From: Candidatus Helarchaeota archaeon
GTDB taxonomy: Archaea; Asgardarchaeota; Lokiarchaeia; Helarchaeales; RDOG01
Assembly (NCBI GenBank): GCA_029838215.1
Contig: JALGVI010000062.1
Coordinates: 1 to 18,672, forward strand
DNA length: 18,672 bases
Direction of reading: 5' to 3'
The notes below the pieces were generated by a model, which was not told the origin of the DNA, did not search any database, and saw only the letters and a program-made list of their open reading frames with translations. Below, one piece after another: positions 108 to 5,521 of this stretch. Every line of letters begins with the position of its first letter. Position 1 is the stretch's first letter. The position numbers and the translations under genes are program-made.

Positions 108-1019
108 TCAACACTTGTCTTTTTCTTTTTCACCGATTTTCGGTTCAAATTTCAGGAGCTCCTCAAATTCTTCCCCAATTCGCTCAAGAATTTTTTGAGG
201 GACTGTAATGCCAATTCCCTTTTCAATCTTGTAATTTAGCCACAAATTGATGCTTTTAGCGCCACTTAGTTTCCGAATTCGAAATTGCTTCATGAGAATT
301 CCTTTATTCATGAAGACCGGATCAAACCGAAAATCTATGATCCCGTCAACGAAATATGATAATACGGACTCAAATTTCTCAATGACTCCCACGTGATTTA
401 TTCCAATTATTTGAGTTGAGTTTTCCTTGCAAACGCGGGCGCGTAATGCTTTTAAAAACTCAAACACGTGTTCTTTCTTGTTAATCGTCATTAATTCCGT
501 TAGACTATCAATTATCAAAATACACGTGGGGATCTTGTTCTGTTTAAAGATTTTTTCACGAAAGTTTGAGACAGTAGTTGTGATTTTATTAAGGAGCGTG
601 CGAAGGTCCGTCGGATTCACGGTGACCATGCACGATTTCAATTTAATCCAAAGTTCTTTGTCTTCTTCATACTTGAGTTGCAAATCCCTTTCAATATCAG
701 TCATTCGAAAAGAAAACCCGTCAATGAAGCATAATTCGTGTTTTTTAACGACTTCATTGCAATTAAAACCCATTGCATTAAGTTGCTGAATTTTTGAAAG
801 AACCGAATCTTCTAGGGTAAAATATATGACTTGATCAAGAGGATCTGCCATTTTCAGTCGATTATATATGATTTGTTGGACAAGAACTCGTTTTCCCGTG
901 CCCGGTTCTCCGTTTAAGACGATAAAATTGTTATTTGGAATTCCTTCGGGCAACAATACATCAAGGATCGGTATGTTTGTCATCTTGGAAGAAACTTTAA
1001 AGCAACTCAATTCGATCAC
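108..1019 (-). CDS. KaiC/RAD55/GvpD-like RecA-superfamily ATPase with atypical Walker A
   Basis: N-terminal TNIPILDVLLPEGIP (RAD55-type TGIxxLDxxLxGGIP), Walker A GEPGTGKR, YFTLED, Walker B ILIIDSLT, and C-terminal YFVDGIIDFR / FRIRKLSG. GTG start lies 9 nt after the gatE stop. Confidence 0.85.
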   Translation of the reverse strand: MIELSCFKVSSKMTNIPILDVLLPEGIPNNNFIVLNGEPGTGKRVLVQQIIYNRLKMADPLDQVIYFTLEDSVLSKIQQLNAMGFNCNEVVKKHELCFIDGFSFRMTDIERDLQLKYEEDKELWIKLKSCMVTVNPTDLRTLLNKITTTVSNFREKIFKQNKIPTCILIIDSLTELMTINKKEHVFEFLKALRARVCKENSTQIIGINHVGVIEKFESVLSYFVDGIIDFRFDPVFMNKGILMKQFRIRKLSGAKSINLWLNYKIEKGIGITVPQKILERIGEEFEELLKFEPKIGEKEKDKC

Positions 1020-1028
1020 GTTGATTAC

Positions 1029-2954
1029 TTAGGGTAGATGCTCTTTTATTAATCTTTTTAAAAGCTTGTTAATGGTTTTTCCCGATGCTTTTCCCCTGAG
1101 TTCTTTCATGATTTCTCCCATTAGAGCACCAATGGCTTTTTCTCCTCTCTCCTGAATCAACGTTTTATTTCTATCAAGGATTTTTTTAATTATTTTTTCG
1201 ATCTCTGCGACATCCATTTGAAGTAATTTTTTCTGCTTGGCAATGTCTAATGCTGATTTCTTGGGATTCTTTATCATTCCGAGTAGAATCTTCGGTATGG
1301 CATCTTTATCGATGGTATCATCTTCAATTAGTTTGAAAATGTCCATGTAGAATTCATCTCGGATCTTATCTAATTCGACTCCGTGTTTTTTCTTGAGTTC
1401 CGAAGGCATGGTGAGTAAAGTATTTGAAATTAGCGTGGGAGAAATCTTTGGAAATTTCCCAACGAGGTCTTCAAATAAAAATAAGTCATGAGATCTCACT
1501 ATTTTGCCGGCCAAGTCGTCATTTAACTTGAGTTCTTTCATGAAACGTTTCTTCTTATCATCAGGAAGTTCCGGGAGGTTATTTTTTATTTTTTTAAGTA
1601 AATCTTTTGAAACTTTTACGGGTGGAATATCTGTTTCAGGATACATTCGGGCCGAGCCGGGCAAAGGACGTAAATAGTTAGTAGTCCCATCGATCTGTGC
1701 CATTCGCGTTTCTTCAGGAACACCAATCAAGCAATATCTTGCACGTTCAATGACTGAATTGAGAGCCTCTTTTATCGTTGATTCTTTTCCTGCCATAATG
1801 AGTATCAAGTCTGCATCGTCAAGCTTGAGTTTCTTCCTAATTGCATTGAATTCTTTTACGAGTCCGTATTTTTCTAATTTTTCATCAGAGTGTATGAATC
1901 CCCTGACACCGTGAGCCTTTGAATAATCTACGAATTCGCGTGCGAGTGTTTTTTCTTCGTATAATATTCTCTTCATCAGTCCCGAGAATTTTGGTAATAC
2001 AATTCCCAATACCTTTCCCTTATTTTTGATGGCTGTCTTGATGATCTTTGAATTAGTGCCTTGGAAAACAGGCGTGAAATCCTCAATTTCCAACGTAAGT
2101 TCCTTTAACCCCTTTTTATTCAATTCGTCTCTGATTTCCAATAATTTGACTTGACGAATGACTTCGTTTTCTACTAATTTTGCTATCATTCGTAAATCTT
2201 GTAATCCCTTGACCTCAACTCTTGCTCCTCCCTTGATCGAAATGTTTACATCTTGGCGGATTGTTCCCAGTCCTCGTTGAGCGTTTCCTGTCATTCGACA
2301 AGTCATTCCGAGAAACTCCGCTACTTCTCGGGCTTGAACCGGATGGTGAATGTCAGGATGCGTTCCAATTTCAATTAATGGGATTCCCAATCGATCAAGC
2401 CTGTATGCCACAATGCCTGTAGAACTCTTGTCGATGATACCTGCTGATTCTTCTTCTAATTCAAGATCCTTCACGCGTACTGGTCCAAAAGAGGTTTTCA
2501 TAGTGGATTCGGGCAGTCCAATCCCTACATTCATCGTGCGCTGAAATCCCGATGTATTGCTCCCGTCGATTACGGTTTTTCGCATGCACTCAATCTCATC
2601 AGGAATGAACATGTTGAGCATTGTTGCTACGGTCAAGGCGATTTCGAGTGCTTCTCTATTGACTGGATGGGGAGGTTCTTCATCCAATTCAACGAGACAG
2701 GTCTTACCTTTATAACAATGATATTCGAATAGTTTGTCTTTATAATATTCATAAAGTGCTGCCGGATCAACATCCCCGAGCTCGCCCGGAACGGAGCGTA
2801 GTTTCCTTTTAATCGTGTAAATCGATTCATCTTCAGGATTGAATTTTGGACTGCAAGCACAAAACAATTTTTCTTTCGAGTTCAGGCGCTGGTGGATTTC
2901 AATACCACAAATTAAACCAATTTCCTCGTAGTTCAGTTCAGTCATTCCATTCAC
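1029..2954 (-). CDS. gatE: Glutamyl-tRNA(Gln) amidotransferase subunit E
   Basis: CGIEIHQRL, TCLVELDEEPPH, RKTVIDGSNTSGFQRT, LDRLGIPLIEIGT, RGLGTIRQDVNISI, RVEVKGLQDL and RPLPGSARMYPETDIP, plus the AspRS-like insertion and a C-terminal helical domain. Start is GTG 2954 or ATG 2945. Confidence 0.97.
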   Translation of the reverse strand: MNGMTELNYEEIGLICGIEIHQRLNSKEKLFCACSPKFNPEDESIYTIKRKLRSVPGELGDVDPAALYEYYKDKLFEYHCYKGKTCLVELDEEPPHPVNREALEIALTVATMLNMFIPDEIECMRKTVIDGSNTSGFQRTMNVGIGLPESTMKTSFGPVRVKDLELEEESAGIIDKSSTGIVAYRLDRLGIPLIEIGTHPDIHHPVQAREVAEFLGMTCRMTGNAQRGLGTIRQDVNISIKGGARVEVKGLQDLRMIAKLVENEVIRQVKLLEIRDELNKKGLKELTLEIEDFTPVFQGTNSKIIKTAIKNKGKVLGIVLPKFSGLMKRILYEEKTLAREFVDYSKAHGVRGFIHSDEKLEKYGLVKEFNAIRKKLKLDDADLILIMAGKESTIKEALNSVIERARYCLIGVPEETRMAQIDGTTNYLRPLPGSARMYPETDIPPVKVSKDLLKKIKNNLPELPDDKKKRFMKELKLNDDLAGKIVRSHDLFLFEDLVGKFPKISPTLISNTLLTMPSELKKKHGVELDKIRDEFYMDIFKLIEDDTIDKDAIPKILLGMIKNPKKSALDIAKQKKLLQMDVAEIEKIIKKILDRNKTLIQERGEKAIGALMGEIMKELRGKASGKTINKLLKRLIKEHLP

Positions 2955-2961
2955 GTCCCCT

Positions 2962-4335
2962 TCAATATAAATAAGATTCTGGCAGAGCCTCCTTCGTTAT
3001 TTCGCCCACCAAGTTCTGTGAAATCATTTTCCTTGCTTCTTCTTGCGAATAATTTCCTAAGAGCCACTTCAATTTAATTAATGCCACTTCTGGGAGCATG
3101 TCTTCTCCAGAAACCACGCCATACTTTTGCAAGTCCCTTCCCTTATCGTAGACATTCATGTTTATGCGACCATATAAGCACTGCGTTGTCATGACAACAA
3201 TTGCAGTCTTGCATAATTCTTTAATGTAATCCAATATTTTCTGATTTTTTTCTGAAAAGTGATCTTTTACTCCTGGAACGTGTCCGAGCCCTGTTCCTTC
3301 CAAAATTAGCCCTTTATATCCATTATCGATGAAAAATTTCAACATTTCAGGATCGAAATCCACGTGAACCTTCACCAAACCGACTTTTTCTTCCATTTTC
3401 GTGCGAATTCGTAGAACCCGAGACGAATCTCTACGTAAATAATTCGTTGATAGAAACTCGATTTCATCATCAAGATAGTTGATCTCGGCAATGGGGAGCG
3501 CATTGATTGGTCGAAAGGCATCGCGTCTTGATGAATGCATTTTTCTCGTCTTGCAGGGTGGATTTATGAACACCAATTCATCATCTGATGTTCCATGCAT
3601 GCAAATTGCAATTCCGGCAAAATCTGTTTTTACAATAAAACGTGCTGCTGAAATTAGGTTCGCACCTGCATCGCTACTACCTCTATCCGAACTCCTTTGT
3701 GCGCCGACAATGAGCACGGGAATTGGTAAATCCTGTAATACAAAACTCAATGCGGCTGCGGTATAATGCAACGTGTCCGTGCCGTGTCCCAGTATGATTC
3801 CATCAACACCTTTTTCAATTTCTTTTTTGATTTCGGTTGCGATGTATTCATAATGTTCCTTCCGGATATCTTCACTCCAGATGTTCATGAGAAGCCGAGC
3901 ATTGACATTTACAATATCTTCAAGCTCTGGAAAAAGTGCCAACAACTCTTCAGGATTGAATGCCGAAACAACACCGCCCGTCCGATAATCCAGCCTGCTT
4001 GCGATTGTACCCCCTGTATGAAGGATTGTTATCGTTTTTAATCTTTTATCATGTTTGACAGGTCTGGTTTCAAAACTTTCTAATTGCCTCGTATCCTTCA
4101 AGTGCTCAATGGTCATTCCCTTCTGATATTTTACTCCAATATTATAACCACTGGAGAGTTTTAACACCAGAGTATCCGGATCGCCGAGTTCCGTTTGAGG
4201 AATGAGGAACCCCTCAAAAGTAGTTGCACCTTTTATCTTGATCTTATCGCCAGGTGAAATCTTGAGTTTTTCAAGCATGTCTTGAATTGTCTTTGAATAA
4301 TTTTTTAGCACGTCATTAAGTCTCCTATTAATCAT
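2962..4335 (-). CDS. gatD: Glutamyl-tRNA(Gln) amidotransferase subunit D (asparaginase-like glutaminase)
   Basis: HTGGTIASRLDYRTGGV, GHGTDT, GAQRSSDRGSSD, KMHSSRRDAF and GTGLGHV, with the GatD-specific N-terminal domain. Adjacent to gatE. Confidence 0.97.
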   Translation of the reverse strand: MINRRLNDVLKNYSKTIQDMLEKLKISPGDKIKIKGATTFEGFLIPQTELGDPDTLVLKLSSGYNIGVKYQKGMTIEHLKDTRQLESFETRPVKHDKRLKTITILHTGGTIASRLDYRTGGVVSAFNPEELLALFPELEDIVNVNARLLMNIWSEDIRKEHYEYIATEIKKEIEKGVDGIILGHGTDTLHYTAAALSFVLQDLPIPVLIVGAQRSSDRGSSDAGANLISAARFIVKTDFAGIAICMHGTSDDELVFINPPCKTRKMHSSRRDAFRPINALPIAEINYLDDEIEFLSTNYLRRDSSRVLRIRTKMEEKVGLVKVHVDFDPEMLKFFIDNGYKGLILEGTGLGHVPGVKDHFSEKNQKILDYIKELCKTAIVVMTTQCLYGRINMNVYDKGRDLQKYGVVSGEDMLPEVALIKLKWLLGNYSQEEARKMISQNLVGEITKEALPESYLY

Positions 4336-4338
4336 TCA

Positions 4339-4584
4339 TTAAAATTCTTCTTCATTTATTGCGAGAACTTGAACTTCAGCCCCGTCCTTCAGAACATCCT
4401 GTAAAATCTTTTTGGGATGTAAGGGTTTCCCATCAAGTAATAATTGAATCGTGTAAAGCTTATTTATCTTGTATTCCTGCCGCACGATTCCTTTAACCTT
4501 TGCTATACTCCATTTTTTTTCCAAAACTAAAACTTTATGCTGCTCATCTTTAGGGGCTTCTCGAAAAATGAAATTTACTTTCAT
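4339..4584 (-). CDS. Ubiquitin-like (beta-grasp) protein resembling UFM1, lacking a C-terminal glycine
   Basis: MKVNF...KVLVL...SIAKVKGIVRQEYKI...IQLLLDGKPLHP..ILQDVLKDGAEVQVL follows the ubiquitin-fold pattern and ends AINEEEF*. Probable start is ATG 4584 or 4596; the track's TTG 4644 lies in the divergent promoter region. The junction with gatD reads TAA-TGA-ATG. Confidence 0.75.
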   Translation of the reverse strand: MKVNFIFREAPKDEQHKVLVLEKKWSIAKVKGIVRQEYKINKLYTIQLLLDGKPLHPKKILQDVLKDGAEVQVLAINEEEF

Positions 4585-4658
4585 GAAATATTCCATTTTG
4601 TTCCTCAACAAGTAATTGGTTTCGATTTTTTGGTCTCGATTCAATTAGACAGATTTTG

Positions 4659-4668
4659 AATTTAAATA
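4659..4668. promoter_or_regulatory. Putative TATA box of the divergent UBL-gatDE / DUF72 promoter
   Basis: TTTAAATA at 4661-4668 sits about 26-33 nt upstream of ATG 4694, consistent with a leaderless archaeal promoter. The core ATTTAAAT is palindromic and could serve both strands. Confidence 0.35.
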
Positions 4669-4693
4669 TGTAATCTTTTAAATGATCATCTTG

Positions 4694-5521
4694 ATGGCAA
4701 AAATTCACTTGGGATGTAGCGGTTGGTCGTATAAGGACTGGATTAAGACTTTCTATCCACCTCGCATTAAAAATAATCAAATGTTGGATTTTTACACGAA
4801 AGTTTTTAAGACTTGCGAGATAAACACGACATTTTATCAAATCCCAAAAAAGAAATTCGTTGCAAATTGGGCTGAGAAGGTTCCTGAAAATTTCGTATTC
4901 GCCGTGAAATTCTATAAACGATTCACTCACGAACTGCTCAAGGACAAGAGCATCTCACAACAAGAGATCGATTTTTATTTTGACCAAATTTCTCCTCTAA
5001 TGCCTCGAATGGGACCTGTTCTCATTCAATTTCCACCAAGTTTGAAGTACGATCTCGAGACATTGACTTACTTGATCTCTTTTTTGCCAACAAAACACCG
5101 CTATGTCATGGAATTTCGACACATTTCTTGGCTCAAGCATCAACAGGCGACCTTGAAAATCCTAGAAAAACACGATATTGCTTATTGCATTGTTGACGAA
5201 CCTCATGACGTTCACGACAACCTGCTACCACCTGACCTTTTCGTCACTACGGACTTCTGTTATATTCGATGGCACGGACTTAATCCAAACCATTGGTATG
5301 ATTACCTGTATTCCGAAGAACAATTGAAAAAATGGGCTCAGAAAATCGAATCCCTTTCGGAAAACGTCTCCGAAATATATGGATATTTTAACAACCACCT
5401 GAATGGACAAGCCCCAACCAATTGTCTCCAATTATTGCAATTATTAGGCAAGAAAGTTACGAATCCAAAAAAAATCTCATTACGTCCAAAAGGTCAAACA
5501 TCACTCGGTCGCTTCTTATAA
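4694..5521 (+). CDS. DUF72 (YecE-like) TIM-barrel protein, copy A
   Basis: IHLGCSGWSY, CEINTTFY, FVFAVK, GPVLIQFPPS, MEFRHISW, YIRWHG and YGYFNNH. Start is ATG 4694 (or 4682). Confidence 0.92.
   Translation: MAKIHLGCSGWSYKDWIKTFYPPRIKNNQMLDFYTKVFKTCEINTTFYQIPKKKFVANWAEKVPENFVFAVKFYKRFTHELLKDKSISQQEIDFYFDQISPLMPRMGPVLIQFPPSLKYDLETLTYLISFLPTKHRYVMEFRHISWLKHQQATLKILEKHDIAYCIVDEPHDVHDNLLPPDLFVTTDFCYIRWHGLNPNHWYDYLYSEEQLKKWAQKIESLSENVSEIYGYFNNHLNGQAPTNCLQLLQLLGKKVTNPKKISLRPKGQTSLGRFL

What the first reader, a model, noticed from the sequence alone, without database searches (positions are those of the whole stretch)
4339..4596. UFM1-like ubiquitin-fold protein with no C-terminal Gly heads the gatDE operon
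Seen: an 81-aa ORF. Aligned by eye against my recollection of human UFM1, it runs without gaps from KVL to DV. Shared positions are KVxF, KVL, ExK, DG, P and LKxGxE. It ends AINEEEF*, no alternative frame supplies a Gly-Gly, and it joins gatD through TAA-TGA-ATG. Established: E1 activation of ubiquitin-like modifiers needs a C-terminal Gly, and beta-grasp (TGS) domains also serve as RNA or protein adaptors in translation. Inference: a non-conjugated ubiquitin-like adaptor, possibly an accessory factor of the GatDE transamidosome or a decoy of an Asgard ubiquitin/UFM1 system. I know of no description of this pairing.
Basis: partly seen in the sequence, partly recalled or inferred. Interest (0 to 1): 0.75.

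Follow-up and report, generated by a model that had tools for sequence, protein, structure and literature searches.

The report
Glycine-less ubiquitin-like gene heading gatDE
A small ubiquitin-like protein that cannot be attached to other proteins is the conserved first gene of the operon for the enzyme that makes glutamine-charged tRNA in one group of Asgard archaea (Helarchaeota-type); it is a ubiquitin relative rather than a UFM1 relative, and its role is untested.

Summary
An 85-aa ORF on the minus strand (4339-4596; 81 aa from the second ATG) ends in AINEEEF and joins gatD through TAA-TGA-ATG. AlphaFold2 gives a confident beta-grasp (pLDDT 93.9).

The UFM1 label does not hold. Profile and fold searches rank ubiquitin, SUMO/Rad60-SLD, ISG15, Hub1 and integral UBL domains first. 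The Pfam Ufm1 model is not matched.

The ORF belongs to a family of about 30 proteins, all from Helarchaeota/Lokiarchaeota MAGs, and none ends in Gly-Gly. The nearest relative is a class-wide Ubl of about 83 aa that ends in ATQAGG.

Three subclades sit directly upstream of gatD-gatE in 10 independent loci, usually followed by a KaiC-like ATPase. One locus has three genes in between. A fourth subclade is not linked to gatDE.

The linked GatDE is the genome's only copy. It is a divergent lineage (37-42% identity to other Lokiarchaeia GatD, with an 11-aa insert and inverted gene order).

Best reading: a non-conjugatable ubiquitin-family adaptor that acts by non-covalent binding, possibly on GatDE. 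The identity is solid; the function is inferred. The one complex prediction gave no verdict. I found no paper on this pairing. Interest is moderate.

The parts
4339..4596 (-). Gly-less ubiquitin-family protein, 85 aa plus TAA stop (alternative start at 4584 gives 81 aa); ends ...VQVLAINEEEF
   Evidence: Translation. Sub-threshold Pfam hits to ubiquitin, Rad60-SLD and Coilin_N. AF2 beta-grasp with pLDDT 93.9. Fold matches at Z 12.6-10.5 to ISG15, Ub, Rad60 SLD2, Hub1 and UBL domains. About 30 homologues, none ending in GG.
4597..4681 (-). 85-nt divergent intergenic region shared with the DUF72 gene. It holds an SD-like GAGG (4603-4606), 6 nt before the ATG, and an A/T-rich TATA-like box TATTTAAAT (4660-4668).
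   Evidence: Read directly from the sequence. Promoter function is inferred and not tested.
4333..4341 (-). TAA-TGA-ATG junction: stop of the Ubl gene, one extra in-frame stop, then the gatD start. There is no room for a terminator or promoter.
   Evidence: No terminator-like site anywhere in 900-4800.
2962..4335 (-). gatD (457 aa), the only GatD in the genome. It is a divergent lineage with an 11-aa insert after GTGLGH and no C-terminal tail.
   Evidence: NCBIfam GatD at 488 bits. Single copy. Identity matrix and alignment. Found only in family f1 among 400 phylum genomes at E<=1e-120.
1029..2954 (-). gatE (641 aa from the GTG; an ATG lies at 2945)
   Evidence: NCBIfam GatE at 769 bits. The only GatE in the genome; the other hits belong to a GatB.
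108..1019 (-). KaiC-like RecA-superfamily ATPase that follows gatE. The same gene follows gatE in L022, L091, L092 and L095, and lies close by in G001, L093 and L094.
   Evidence: Pfam KaiC at E 3.9e-20. Synteny. Alignment A4.

Best explanation
The ORF encodes a stand-alone protein of the ubiquitin family proper. It is a Gly-less offshoot of the class-wide ATQAGG-ended ubiquitin-like protein of Lokiarchaeia. With no C-terminal Gly it cannot be adenylated by an E1 or conjugated. It therefore most likely acts as Hub1/UBL5 and integral UBL domains do, by non-covalent docking through its beta-grasp surface. In one Helarchaeota-type lineage it became the first cistron of a rebuilt operon, Ubl-gatD-gatE(-KaiC-like ATPase-226-aa protein), and is probably translationally coupled to gatD. 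The most likely partner is therefore the lineage's own divergent GatDE amidotransferase, or a factor that works with it, with the Ubl serving as an accessory or adaptor subunit. Shown: the gene is real, the fold, family membership, absence of Gly, conserved synteny, and the divergence of the linked GatDE. Inferred: non-covalent action and GatDE as the partner.
For: Fold and family: AF2 model with pLDDT 93.9; Foldseek and VIA top hits are all ubiquitin, SUMO, ISG15, Hub1 or UBL domains; the family profile hits ubiquitin, Rad23 UBL and Get5 UBL in the PDB; PF00240 is matched by 12 of 13 aligned members; the nearest ESM Atlas cluster is an 84-aa Promethearchaeota ubiquitin-like family, TM 0.82. 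No Gly: none of about 30 members ends in G or GG, and one member (P0007, 167 aa) carries an 80-aa extension after the fold, so a free C-terminus is not required. Nearest relative: the GG-ended ATQAGG family aligns almost without gaps (the only internal gaps are a 5-residue deletion in one unlinked-subclade member, L003, and 1-2 residue gaps before the last strand) and scores about 50 bits against the Gly-less profile. Synteny: the Ubl lies directly upstream of gatD-gatE in 10 loci from three subclades that are 33-54% identical (window, G001, L022, L023, L091-L096); L021 keeps it on the same strand three genes upstream. The junction is TAA-TGA-ATG and no terminator-like site is found. Co-variation with the enzyme: the linked GatD is 64-80% identical within the group but 37-42% identical to all other Lokiarchaeia GatD, has an 11-aa insert, lacks the tail, and has gene order gatD-gatE instead of gatE-gatD-uL2. 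None of 29 relatives with the ordinary arrangement has a Ubl within 1.5 kb of gatD.
Against: A fourth subclade of the same Gly-less family (tails like ASRASE; G005, L079-L084, L097) is not next to gatDE and has its own conserved neighbours. The family therefore has, or once had, a role independent of GatDE. All linked loci may descend from a single rearrangement, so the 10 loci are not independent events. There is no expression or interaction data. The Ubl evolves faster than GatD (33-54% against 64-80% identity), which is unusual for a tight stoichiometric subunit. GatDE works without any such partner in all other archaea (established knowledge from the M. thermautotrophicus and P. abyssi enzymes).
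Confidence: 0.4

Rival explanations
1. It is a non-conjugatable mimic of ubiquitin or of the ATQAGG Ubl that acts inside the Asgard ubiquitin system. It would be a decoy or regulator that occupies an E1, E2, deubiquitinase or ubiquitin receptor without being transferred. The gatDE operon would only provide co-expression with a housekeeping gene.
For: Its closest relative is a GG-ended, presumably conjugatable Ubl. The same genome has a canonical RING-ubiquitin(GG+6 aa)-E2 cluster. The unlinked subclade shows that the family does not need gatDE.
Against: No E1, E2, JAB or RING gene lies next to any family member examined. Adjacency to gatD has been kept across three diverged subclades.
Confidence: 0.25
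2. It is a general-purpose small UBL adaptor, for example for a chaperone, the proteasome/Cdc48, or RNA (as the SF3A1 UBL binds RNA). Its position ahead of gatD would be a neutral result of the operon rearrangement, inherited by descent and not functionally tied to GatDE.
For: Linkage is confined to one lineage and could be a single event. The unlinked subclade has other neighbours (PP-loop ATPase, HTH proteins, PhoU-like). The top structural matches are UBL domains that dock to proteasome or chaperone partners. The proteins are mildly basic, pI 8-9.8.
Against: The 3-nt coupling and 10 retained adjacencies persist despite turnover of the flanking genes upstream (DUF72, TOBE, LUD and OB-fold genes differ between loci). 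That argues for selection on the link.
Confidence: 0.2
3. It is a UFM1 homologue, related to the Ufm1-like proteins reported in Asgard archaea.
For: The beta1-beta2 loop is longer than in ubiquitin. Ufm1 homologues have been reported in nine Asgard clades (PMC12962969).
Against: Pfam Ufm1 (PF03671) is not matched at E<=1 by any of 13 members, and the whole genome has no hit over the cut-off. Sequence profiles hit ubiquitin and UBL domains. The protein has no C-terminal Gly.
Confidence: 0.03
4. It is a decaying copy of the GG-ended Ubl that has lost its C-terminus.
For: Its nearest relative ends in GG.
Against: About 30 intact homologues of constant length, in four subclades, show conserved core and helix motifs (F9, K33, K35, G36, R39, N45, G56). 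The fold is predicted with high confidence. No stops or frameshifts were seen.
Confidence: 0.02

Closest known systems
Lokiarchaeia ATQAGG-ended ubiquitin-like protein (about 83 aa; own-genome copy at G000:C1:59103-59342)
   Same: Same length. It aligns almost without gaps over about 80 residues at 23-28% identity to the window protein, and shares F9, K35, N45 and G56. It is the best non-family hit of the Gly-less profile, about 50 bits.
   Different: It ends in a free or one-residue-capped Gly-Gly and is very conserved across the class. It is never next to gatDE in the loci examined. The window protein has an acidic, Gly-free tail.
Hub1/UBL5 (eukaryotic ubiquitin-like protein without Gly-Gly that binds Snu66 HIND motifs non-covalently; PDB 3PLU, 4PYU)
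   Same: A stand-alone beta-grasp protein of about 75-85 aa, with no C-terminal Gly-Gly, that acts without conjugation (established knowledge). Structural match Z 12.1-11.7. A UBL5 cluster is among the nearest by language-model features, score 0.88.
   Different: No specific sequence relationship was shown. Hub1 works in splicing, and no HIND-like partner is known here. Z values are tied with many other ubiquitin-like domains.
Integral UBL domains of non-conjugated proteins (Rad60 SLD2, Rad23, Dsk2/ubiquilin, BAG6, Get5/MDY2)
   Same: These are the best profile and structural matches: Get5 UBL E 2.9e-7 and Rad23 UBL E 1.3e-5 with profile A1; Rad60 SLD2 Z 12.4 and BAG6 Z 12.1. They act as docking modules. 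One family member (P0007) is itself an N-terminal UBL fused to a helical extension.
   Different: Those are domains of larger eukaryotic proteins with known partners (Ubc9, Rpn1/Rpn10, Sgt2). Here the protein usually stands alone and its partner is unknown.
UFM1 (PF03671)
   Same: Small beta-grasp protein with a longish beta1-beta2 hairpin. Asgard homologues have been reported (PMC12962969).
   Different: No Pfam Ufm1 match. Mature UFM1 ends in Gly and is conjugated through UBA5/UFC1/UFL1.
GatC of bacterial GatCAB
   Same: A small protein (about 95 aa) encoded first in an amidotransferase operon (gatC-gatA-gatB), which stabilises the glutaminase subunit (established knowledge). This is a functional analogy for a small accessory cistron ahead of the glutaminase-type subunit.
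   Different: GatC is not a beta-grasp protein, and no homology exists. GatDE is known to work as a D2E2 tetramer without a third subunit.

Membership tests
Ubiquitin family / ubiquitin-like beta-grasp (PF00240 clan) | beta-grasp fold (beta-beta-alpha-beta-beta-3/10 helix-beta) | tested here: met
   AF2 pLDDT 93.9 and pTM 0.83, with elements E4-10, E20-26, H31-42, E48-54, H65-68 and E73-81. Z 12.6-10.5 to ubiquitin, ISG15, Rad60 SLD2 and Hub1. Foldseek E about 5e-6, prob 1.00.
Ubiquitin family / ubiquitin-like beta-grasp (PF00240 clan) | Sequence-profile match to ubiquitin | tested here: met
   The window protein alone is below threshold (17.2 bits against a 25.4 cut-off, E 0.0045). The family profile hits mono-ubiquitin-sized chains at E 2e-4 to 1e-2 and Rad23 and Get5 UBLs at 1e-5 to 3e-7. 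PF00240 is matched by 12 of 13 aligned members, best 8.8e-11.
Conjugatable ubiquitin-like modifiers (ubiquitin, SUMO, NEDD8, SAMP, Urm1, MoaD/ThiS) | C-terminal Gly (usually Gly-Gly), free or exposed by processing, for E1 adenylation | tested here: not met
   The protein ends in AINEEEF. There is no Gly after the last strand in any of about 30 members, except a non-conserved RGD end in two. No GG in other frames.
UFM1 (PF03671) | Match to the Ufm1 profile | tested here: not met
   No PF03671 hit at E<=1 for the window protein or any of 13 members. The best genome-wide hit is 12.5 bits against a 27-bit cut-off, and it lies elsewhere.
UFM1 (PF03671) | UFM1 as the closest structure | tested here: inconclusive
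   The top-50 lists of three structural searches contain other ubiquitin-like families at Z 12.6-10.5. A family that is not listed is not excluded.
Hub1/UBL5-type non-conjugated Ubl | Stand-alone Ubl without Gly-Gly that acts by non-covalent binding to a defined peptide motif | tested here: inconclusive
   Lack of Gly-Gly and the fold match are met. Specific homology and a binding motif or partner were not shown.
TGS / MoaD-ThiS-SAMP beta-grasp families | Closest profile or structure in these families | tested here: inconclusive
   There are no Pfam hits to ThiS, MoaD or TGS at E<=1. They are not among the listed structural matches, which does not exclude them.
GatDE accessory subunit (hypothetical) | Physical association with GatD and/or GatE | not testable with these tools
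   Only genomic linkage is available: 10 loci and the TAA-TGA-ATG coupling. This needs pull-down or co-purification.

The most novel reading that the evidence does not exclude
The Gly-less Ubl is a dedicated third component of a divergent GatDE. It would bind the lineage-specific 11-aa insert or remodelled C-terminus of GatD and control assembly, stability or tRNA(Gln) hand-over of the archaeal transamidosome, perhaps together with the downstream KaiC/Elp456-like ATPase. That would be the first ubiquitin-like regulator of a tRNA-dependent amidotransferase, and an Asgard example of a ubiquitin fold recruited as a non-covalent translation factor.
Probability: 0.25. Interest if true: 0.7.

Novelty: new variant of a known kind. 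Interest (0 to 1): 0.45.

Why it matters
Asgard archaea are the main source of evidence on how the eukaryotic ubiquitin toolkit arose. Eukaryotes use many ubiquitin-like domains that are never conjugated (Hub1, Rad23, Dsk2, BAG6, Get5). This family shows that such Gly-less, docking-type ubiquitin folds had already split from a conjugatable Ubl inside Lokiarchaeia.

Its conserved, translationally coupled position ahead of a divergent gatD-gatE suggests an unexpected link between a ubiquitin fold and tRNA-dependent glutamine formation. GatDE has so far been described only as a two-subunit enzyme. The family is small and easy to express, so the hypothesis can be tested directly. If the link proves to be mere co-location, the finding reduces to a new, unannotated Ubl subfamily.

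Tried and rejected
1. Complex prediction of Ubl (alignment A2) with GatD (alignment A3): score 0.00 in both runs against a mark of 0.32, reported as 'no answer'. This is not evidence for or against binding.

2. Expression: no RNA holder is listed for window:2900-4700. Only two hydrothermal-vent metagenome DNA runs hold small shares, 0.14 and 0.08. I did not lay reads.

3. UFM1: it is not among the best 60 PDB sequence-profile hits, nor among the 50 rows shown by Foldseek, pdb_via or pdb_via_wide. MoaD/ThiS/SAMP, Urm1 and TGS are also not listed. Absence from a list does not exclude them. I could not run a direct UFM1 alignment because no tool supplied a UFM1 sequence, and I did not type one from memory.

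4. Word-indexed search with the single protein found only the protein itself. The exhaustive phmmer search found 3 relatives. The profile search found 24. The search for longer, fused forms found only P0007 and an unrelated 1133-aa multi-ubiquitin protein.

5. The C-terminal extension of P0007 has no Pfam family.

6. The tree of 34 Ubl sequences supports each subclade, but the order of the subclades and the root are unresolved (short proteins and a very long canonical-ubiquitin branch). I make no claim about how many times Gly was lost.

7. Isoelectric points are only mildly basic and give no clear case for RNA binding.

8. Literature: no paper holds both 'GatDE' and 'ubiquitin-like' in the searchable library. 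That library lacks most subscription journals.

Full report
OBSERVATION

The ORF lies on the minus strand. Coordinates 4339-4596 encode 85 residues (MEYFMKVNFIFREAPKDEQHKVLVLEKKWSIAKVKGIVRQEYKINKLYTIQLLLDGKPLHPKKILQDVLKDGAEVQVLAINEEEF) followed by TAA.

The first ATG is the likelier start. A GAGG box sits 6 nt upstream of it (4603-4606), and the closest relative begins MELIINASF in register with MEYFMKVNF.

The junction to the next gene reads TTT TAA TGA ATG, exactly as reported. No other frame offers Gly-Gly near the 3' end.

The downstream genes are:
- gatD at 2962-4335 (NCBIfam GatD, 488 bits)
- gatE at 1029-2954 (769 bits)
- a KaiC-like ATPase at 108-1019 (Pfam KaiC, E 3.9e-20)

A DUF72 gene is transcribed divergently from 4682. 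No terminator-like site occurs anywhere in 900-4800.

IS IT A REAL GENE, AND WHAT FOLD IS IT?

On its own the protein gives only sub-threshold Pfam hits: ubiquitin at E 0.0045, Rad60-SLD and Coilin_N. All three are ubiquitin-like folds.

An exhaustive phmmer search of 1.8 billion representatives found three relatives. Whole-genome searches of relatives found two more. A profile search then raised the family to about 30 proteins of 82-90 aa.

With a 13-sequence alignment, AlphaFold2 gives a beta-grasp with mean pLDDT 93.9 and pTM 0.83. The gene is therefore real and conserved.

UBIQUITIN OR UFM1?

By sequence:
- The family profiles A1 and A2 hit poly- and mono-ubiquitin, Get5/MDY2 UBL (E 2.9e-7), Rad23 UBL (1.3e-5) and FAT10.
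- PF00240 is matched by 12 of 13 aligned members, best 8.8e-11. PF03671 (Ufm1), ThiS/MoaD and TGS give nothing at E<=1.
- The whole genome holds no Ufm1 hit over the cut-off.

By structure:
- Foldseek puts SUMO1, Rad60 SLD2, ubiquitin, ISG15, FAT10, NEDD8 and Caldiarchaeum ubiquitin on top.
- VIA-align gives Z 12.6-11.8 for ISG15-C, ubiquitin, Rad60 SLD2, Caldiarchaeum ubiquitin, Hub1, and the BAG6, Dsk2 and ubiquilin UBLs.
- An all-against-representatives search of 48,161 chains fills its top 50 (Z 12.4-10.5) with ubiquitin-type domains only.
- The nearest ESM Atlas cluster is an 84-aa 'ubiquitin-like domain' family of Promethearchaeota, TM 0.82. Language-model neighbours carry ubiquitin, Rad60-SLD, TUG-UBL1 or UBL5 labels.

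So the protein belongs to the ubiquitin family proper. Ufm1 homologues do exist in Asgard archaea (PMC12962969), but this is not one of them by any test I could run.

THE FAMILY AND ITS NEAREST RELATIVE

The alignment shows two groups of the same length that align almost without gaps.

The first group is a very conserved protein ending ...VMATQAGG, sometimes with one extra residue.
- With the Gly-less profile it was found in 133 of 400 phylum genomes. All 133 belong to the families labelled same class or same order, and none of the other families matched at E<=1e-6 with this query.
- The window's own genome has a copy on contig C1.

The second group is the Gly-less family.
- NCBI records name its members 'hypothetical protein' or 'ubiquitin-like protein' of Candidatus Helarchaeota or Lokiarchaeota MAGs.
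- Among 400 phylum genomes, only G000, G001 and G005 carry it, each once.
- None of the roughly 30 members has Gly after the last strand, apart from a non-conserved ...RGD end in two. The tails are NEEEF, KTSDLRES, SNPNKI or SRASEV.
- One member (P0007, 167 aa) continues into an 80-residue helical extension with no Pfam match. A free C-terminus is therefore not needed.

The genome also has a canonical Asgard ubiquitin cluster: a RING-like gene, a ubiquitin ending GG plus 6 residues, and an E2. The Gly-less protein is thus one of at least three ubiquitin-family paralogues.

A tree supports four groups: the GG type, two gatD-linked clades, and an unlinked set. It cannot order them.

SYNTENY

The Ubl gene lies directly upstream of gatD-gatE in 10 loci:
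- the window
- G001
- L022 and L023
- L091 to L096

These loci cover three subclades that are only 33-54% identical to each other.

In L021 three genes (an unknown, a metallophosphoesterase and a methyltransferase) lie between the Ubl and gatD on the same strand.

A KaiC-like ATPase and a 226-aa unknown protein follow gatE directly in four other loci (L022, L091, L092, L095). In the window the KaiC-like gene also follows gatE directly and is followed by an ORF cut off at the window edge. In three further loci (G001, L093, L094) the KaiC-like gene lies a gene or two away. Flanking genes upstream vary: DUF72, TOBE, LUD/CCG, OB-fold.

The fourth subclade, with ASRASE-type tails, is never next to gatDE. 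This holds for G005 and seven metagenome or MAG loci. It has its own recurring neighbours: a PP-loop ATPase, HTH proteins, a 120+197-aa pair and a PhoU-like gene.

THE LINKED GatDE IS UNUSUAL

It is the only GatD and GatE in this 94%-complete genome.

In 29 other relatives, including the other families of the same order, the order is gatE-gatD followed by a uL2-like gene. None of them has a Ubl within 1.5 kb.

The Ubl-linked GatD proteins are 64-80% identical to one another but only 37-42% identical to all the others, which are 47-73% identical among themselves. They carry an 11-residue insert after the GTGLGH motif and a small insert near residue 297, and they lack the C-terminal tail.

At E<=1e-120 this GatD type is found only in G000 and G001 among 400 phylum genomes. 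So operon inversion, enzyme divergence and Ubl recruitment coincide in one lineage. This is one historical event, not ten.

MECHANISM

Shown:
- It is a conserved ubiquitin-family beta-grasp protein with no Gly.
- It is the first cistron of, and is separated by only 3 nt from, the sole gatD.

From established knowledge: E1 enzymes need a C-terminal Gly carboxylate, so the protein cannot be conjugated by the canonical route. Ubiquitin-like proteins and domains without it (Hub1/UBL5, Rad23, Dsk2, BAG6, Get5 and Rad60 SLD) act by non-covalent docking.

Inferred: this protein is a docking module, and its conserved coupling to gatD points to GatDE, or a factor acting with it, as the partner. It would be analogous in operon logic, not in fold, to GatC heading gatCAB.

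I put about 0.9 on the identity statement and about 0.4 on the whole statement including the GatDE partnership. The unlinked subclade shows an independent or ancestral role, the linkage stems from one lineage, and there are no interaction or expression data.

Rivals:
- a decoy or regulator within the ubiquitin system (0.25)
- a general adaptor whose position is inherited but not functional (0.2)
- a UFM1 homologue (0.03)
- a decayed copy (0.02)

COMPARISON AND NOVELTY

As a kind of protein (a non-conjugatable ubiquitin-like protein) it is known from eukaryotes. As a family it is unannotated and confined to Helarchaeota-type Lokiarchaeia.

I found no paper holding both GatDE and 'ubiquitin-like'. 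Earlier scan notes on this genome are first-reader notes only. Other scan reports describe divergent second GatDE pairs in Asgard archaea. That prompted the single-copy and divergence checks made here.

I rate it a new variant of a known kind, of moderate interest. The UFM1 angle falls away. The conserved synteny with a remodelled GatDE is a real and testable lead.

Noticed in passing
window 1029-4335 (gatD, gatE); loci L050-L078: The window's GatDE is the genome's only copy but is a divergent lineage. GatD is 37-42% identical to other Lokiarchaeia GatD, against 47-73% among those. It has an 11-aa insert after GTGLGH and has lost the C-terminal tail. Gene order is gatD-gatE, whereas 29 relatives have gatE-gatD-uL2-like. 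Xenologous replacement or acceleration is unresolved.
   Followed up: partly
window 108-1019 (-): The KaiC-like ATPase after gatE is conserved in this position, together with a 226-aa unknown protein, in several relatives. Its Walker A reads GEPGTGKR here and GKG in G001, against GKS in four relatives, so the Ser/Thr is not conserved. It has sub-threshold Pfam hits to the Elongator Elp6, Elp5 (Iki1) and Elp4 (PAXNEB) families, which are tRNA-binding RecA-like proteins.
   Followed up: partly
G000:C1:59103-59342 (L024 7092-7352, -); L004-L020: A class-wide, very conserved ubiquitin-like protein of about 83 aa ends in ...VMATQAGG, sometimes with one extra residue. It was found in 133 of 400 phylum genomes, all in the same class. 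It has no E1, E2 or RING gene beside it. In many genomes it lies next to a small Pro-rich protein ending PPEPFRF. Its function and conjugation machinery are unknown.
   Followed up: partly
G000:C112 (L086 1020-2090): A canonical Asgard ubiquitin cluster lies in the same genome: a RING-like 79-aa protein, an 86-aa ubiquitin ending TRTEGG plus a 6-aa extension (FLQLAF), and an overlapping UBC-type E2.
   Followed up: no
L079, L081-L084, L097, L025 (G005): The unlinked, ASRASE-tailed subclade of the Gly-less Ubl has a recurring neighbourhood of its own: a 275-aa PP-loop ATPase (SGGVDS motif), a 240-280-aa HTH protein, a divergent 120+197-aa pair of unknown proteins, and often a convergent PhoU/DUF47-like gene.
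   Followed up: partly
L021 5001-5504 (P0007): One close relative of the window protein (53% identity) is a 167-aa fusion of the Ubl to an 80-residue, probably helical, extension with no Pfam match. In that contig three genes (an unknown, a metallophosphoesterase and a methyltransferase) are inserted between the Ubl and gatD.
   Followed up: partly
window 4682-5521 (+): A DUF72 gene is transcribed divergently from the Ubl gene across an 85-nt spacer. A DUF72 gene also lies upstream of the Ubl in L021, L094 and L096, so this neighbour is partly conserved too.
   Followed up: no
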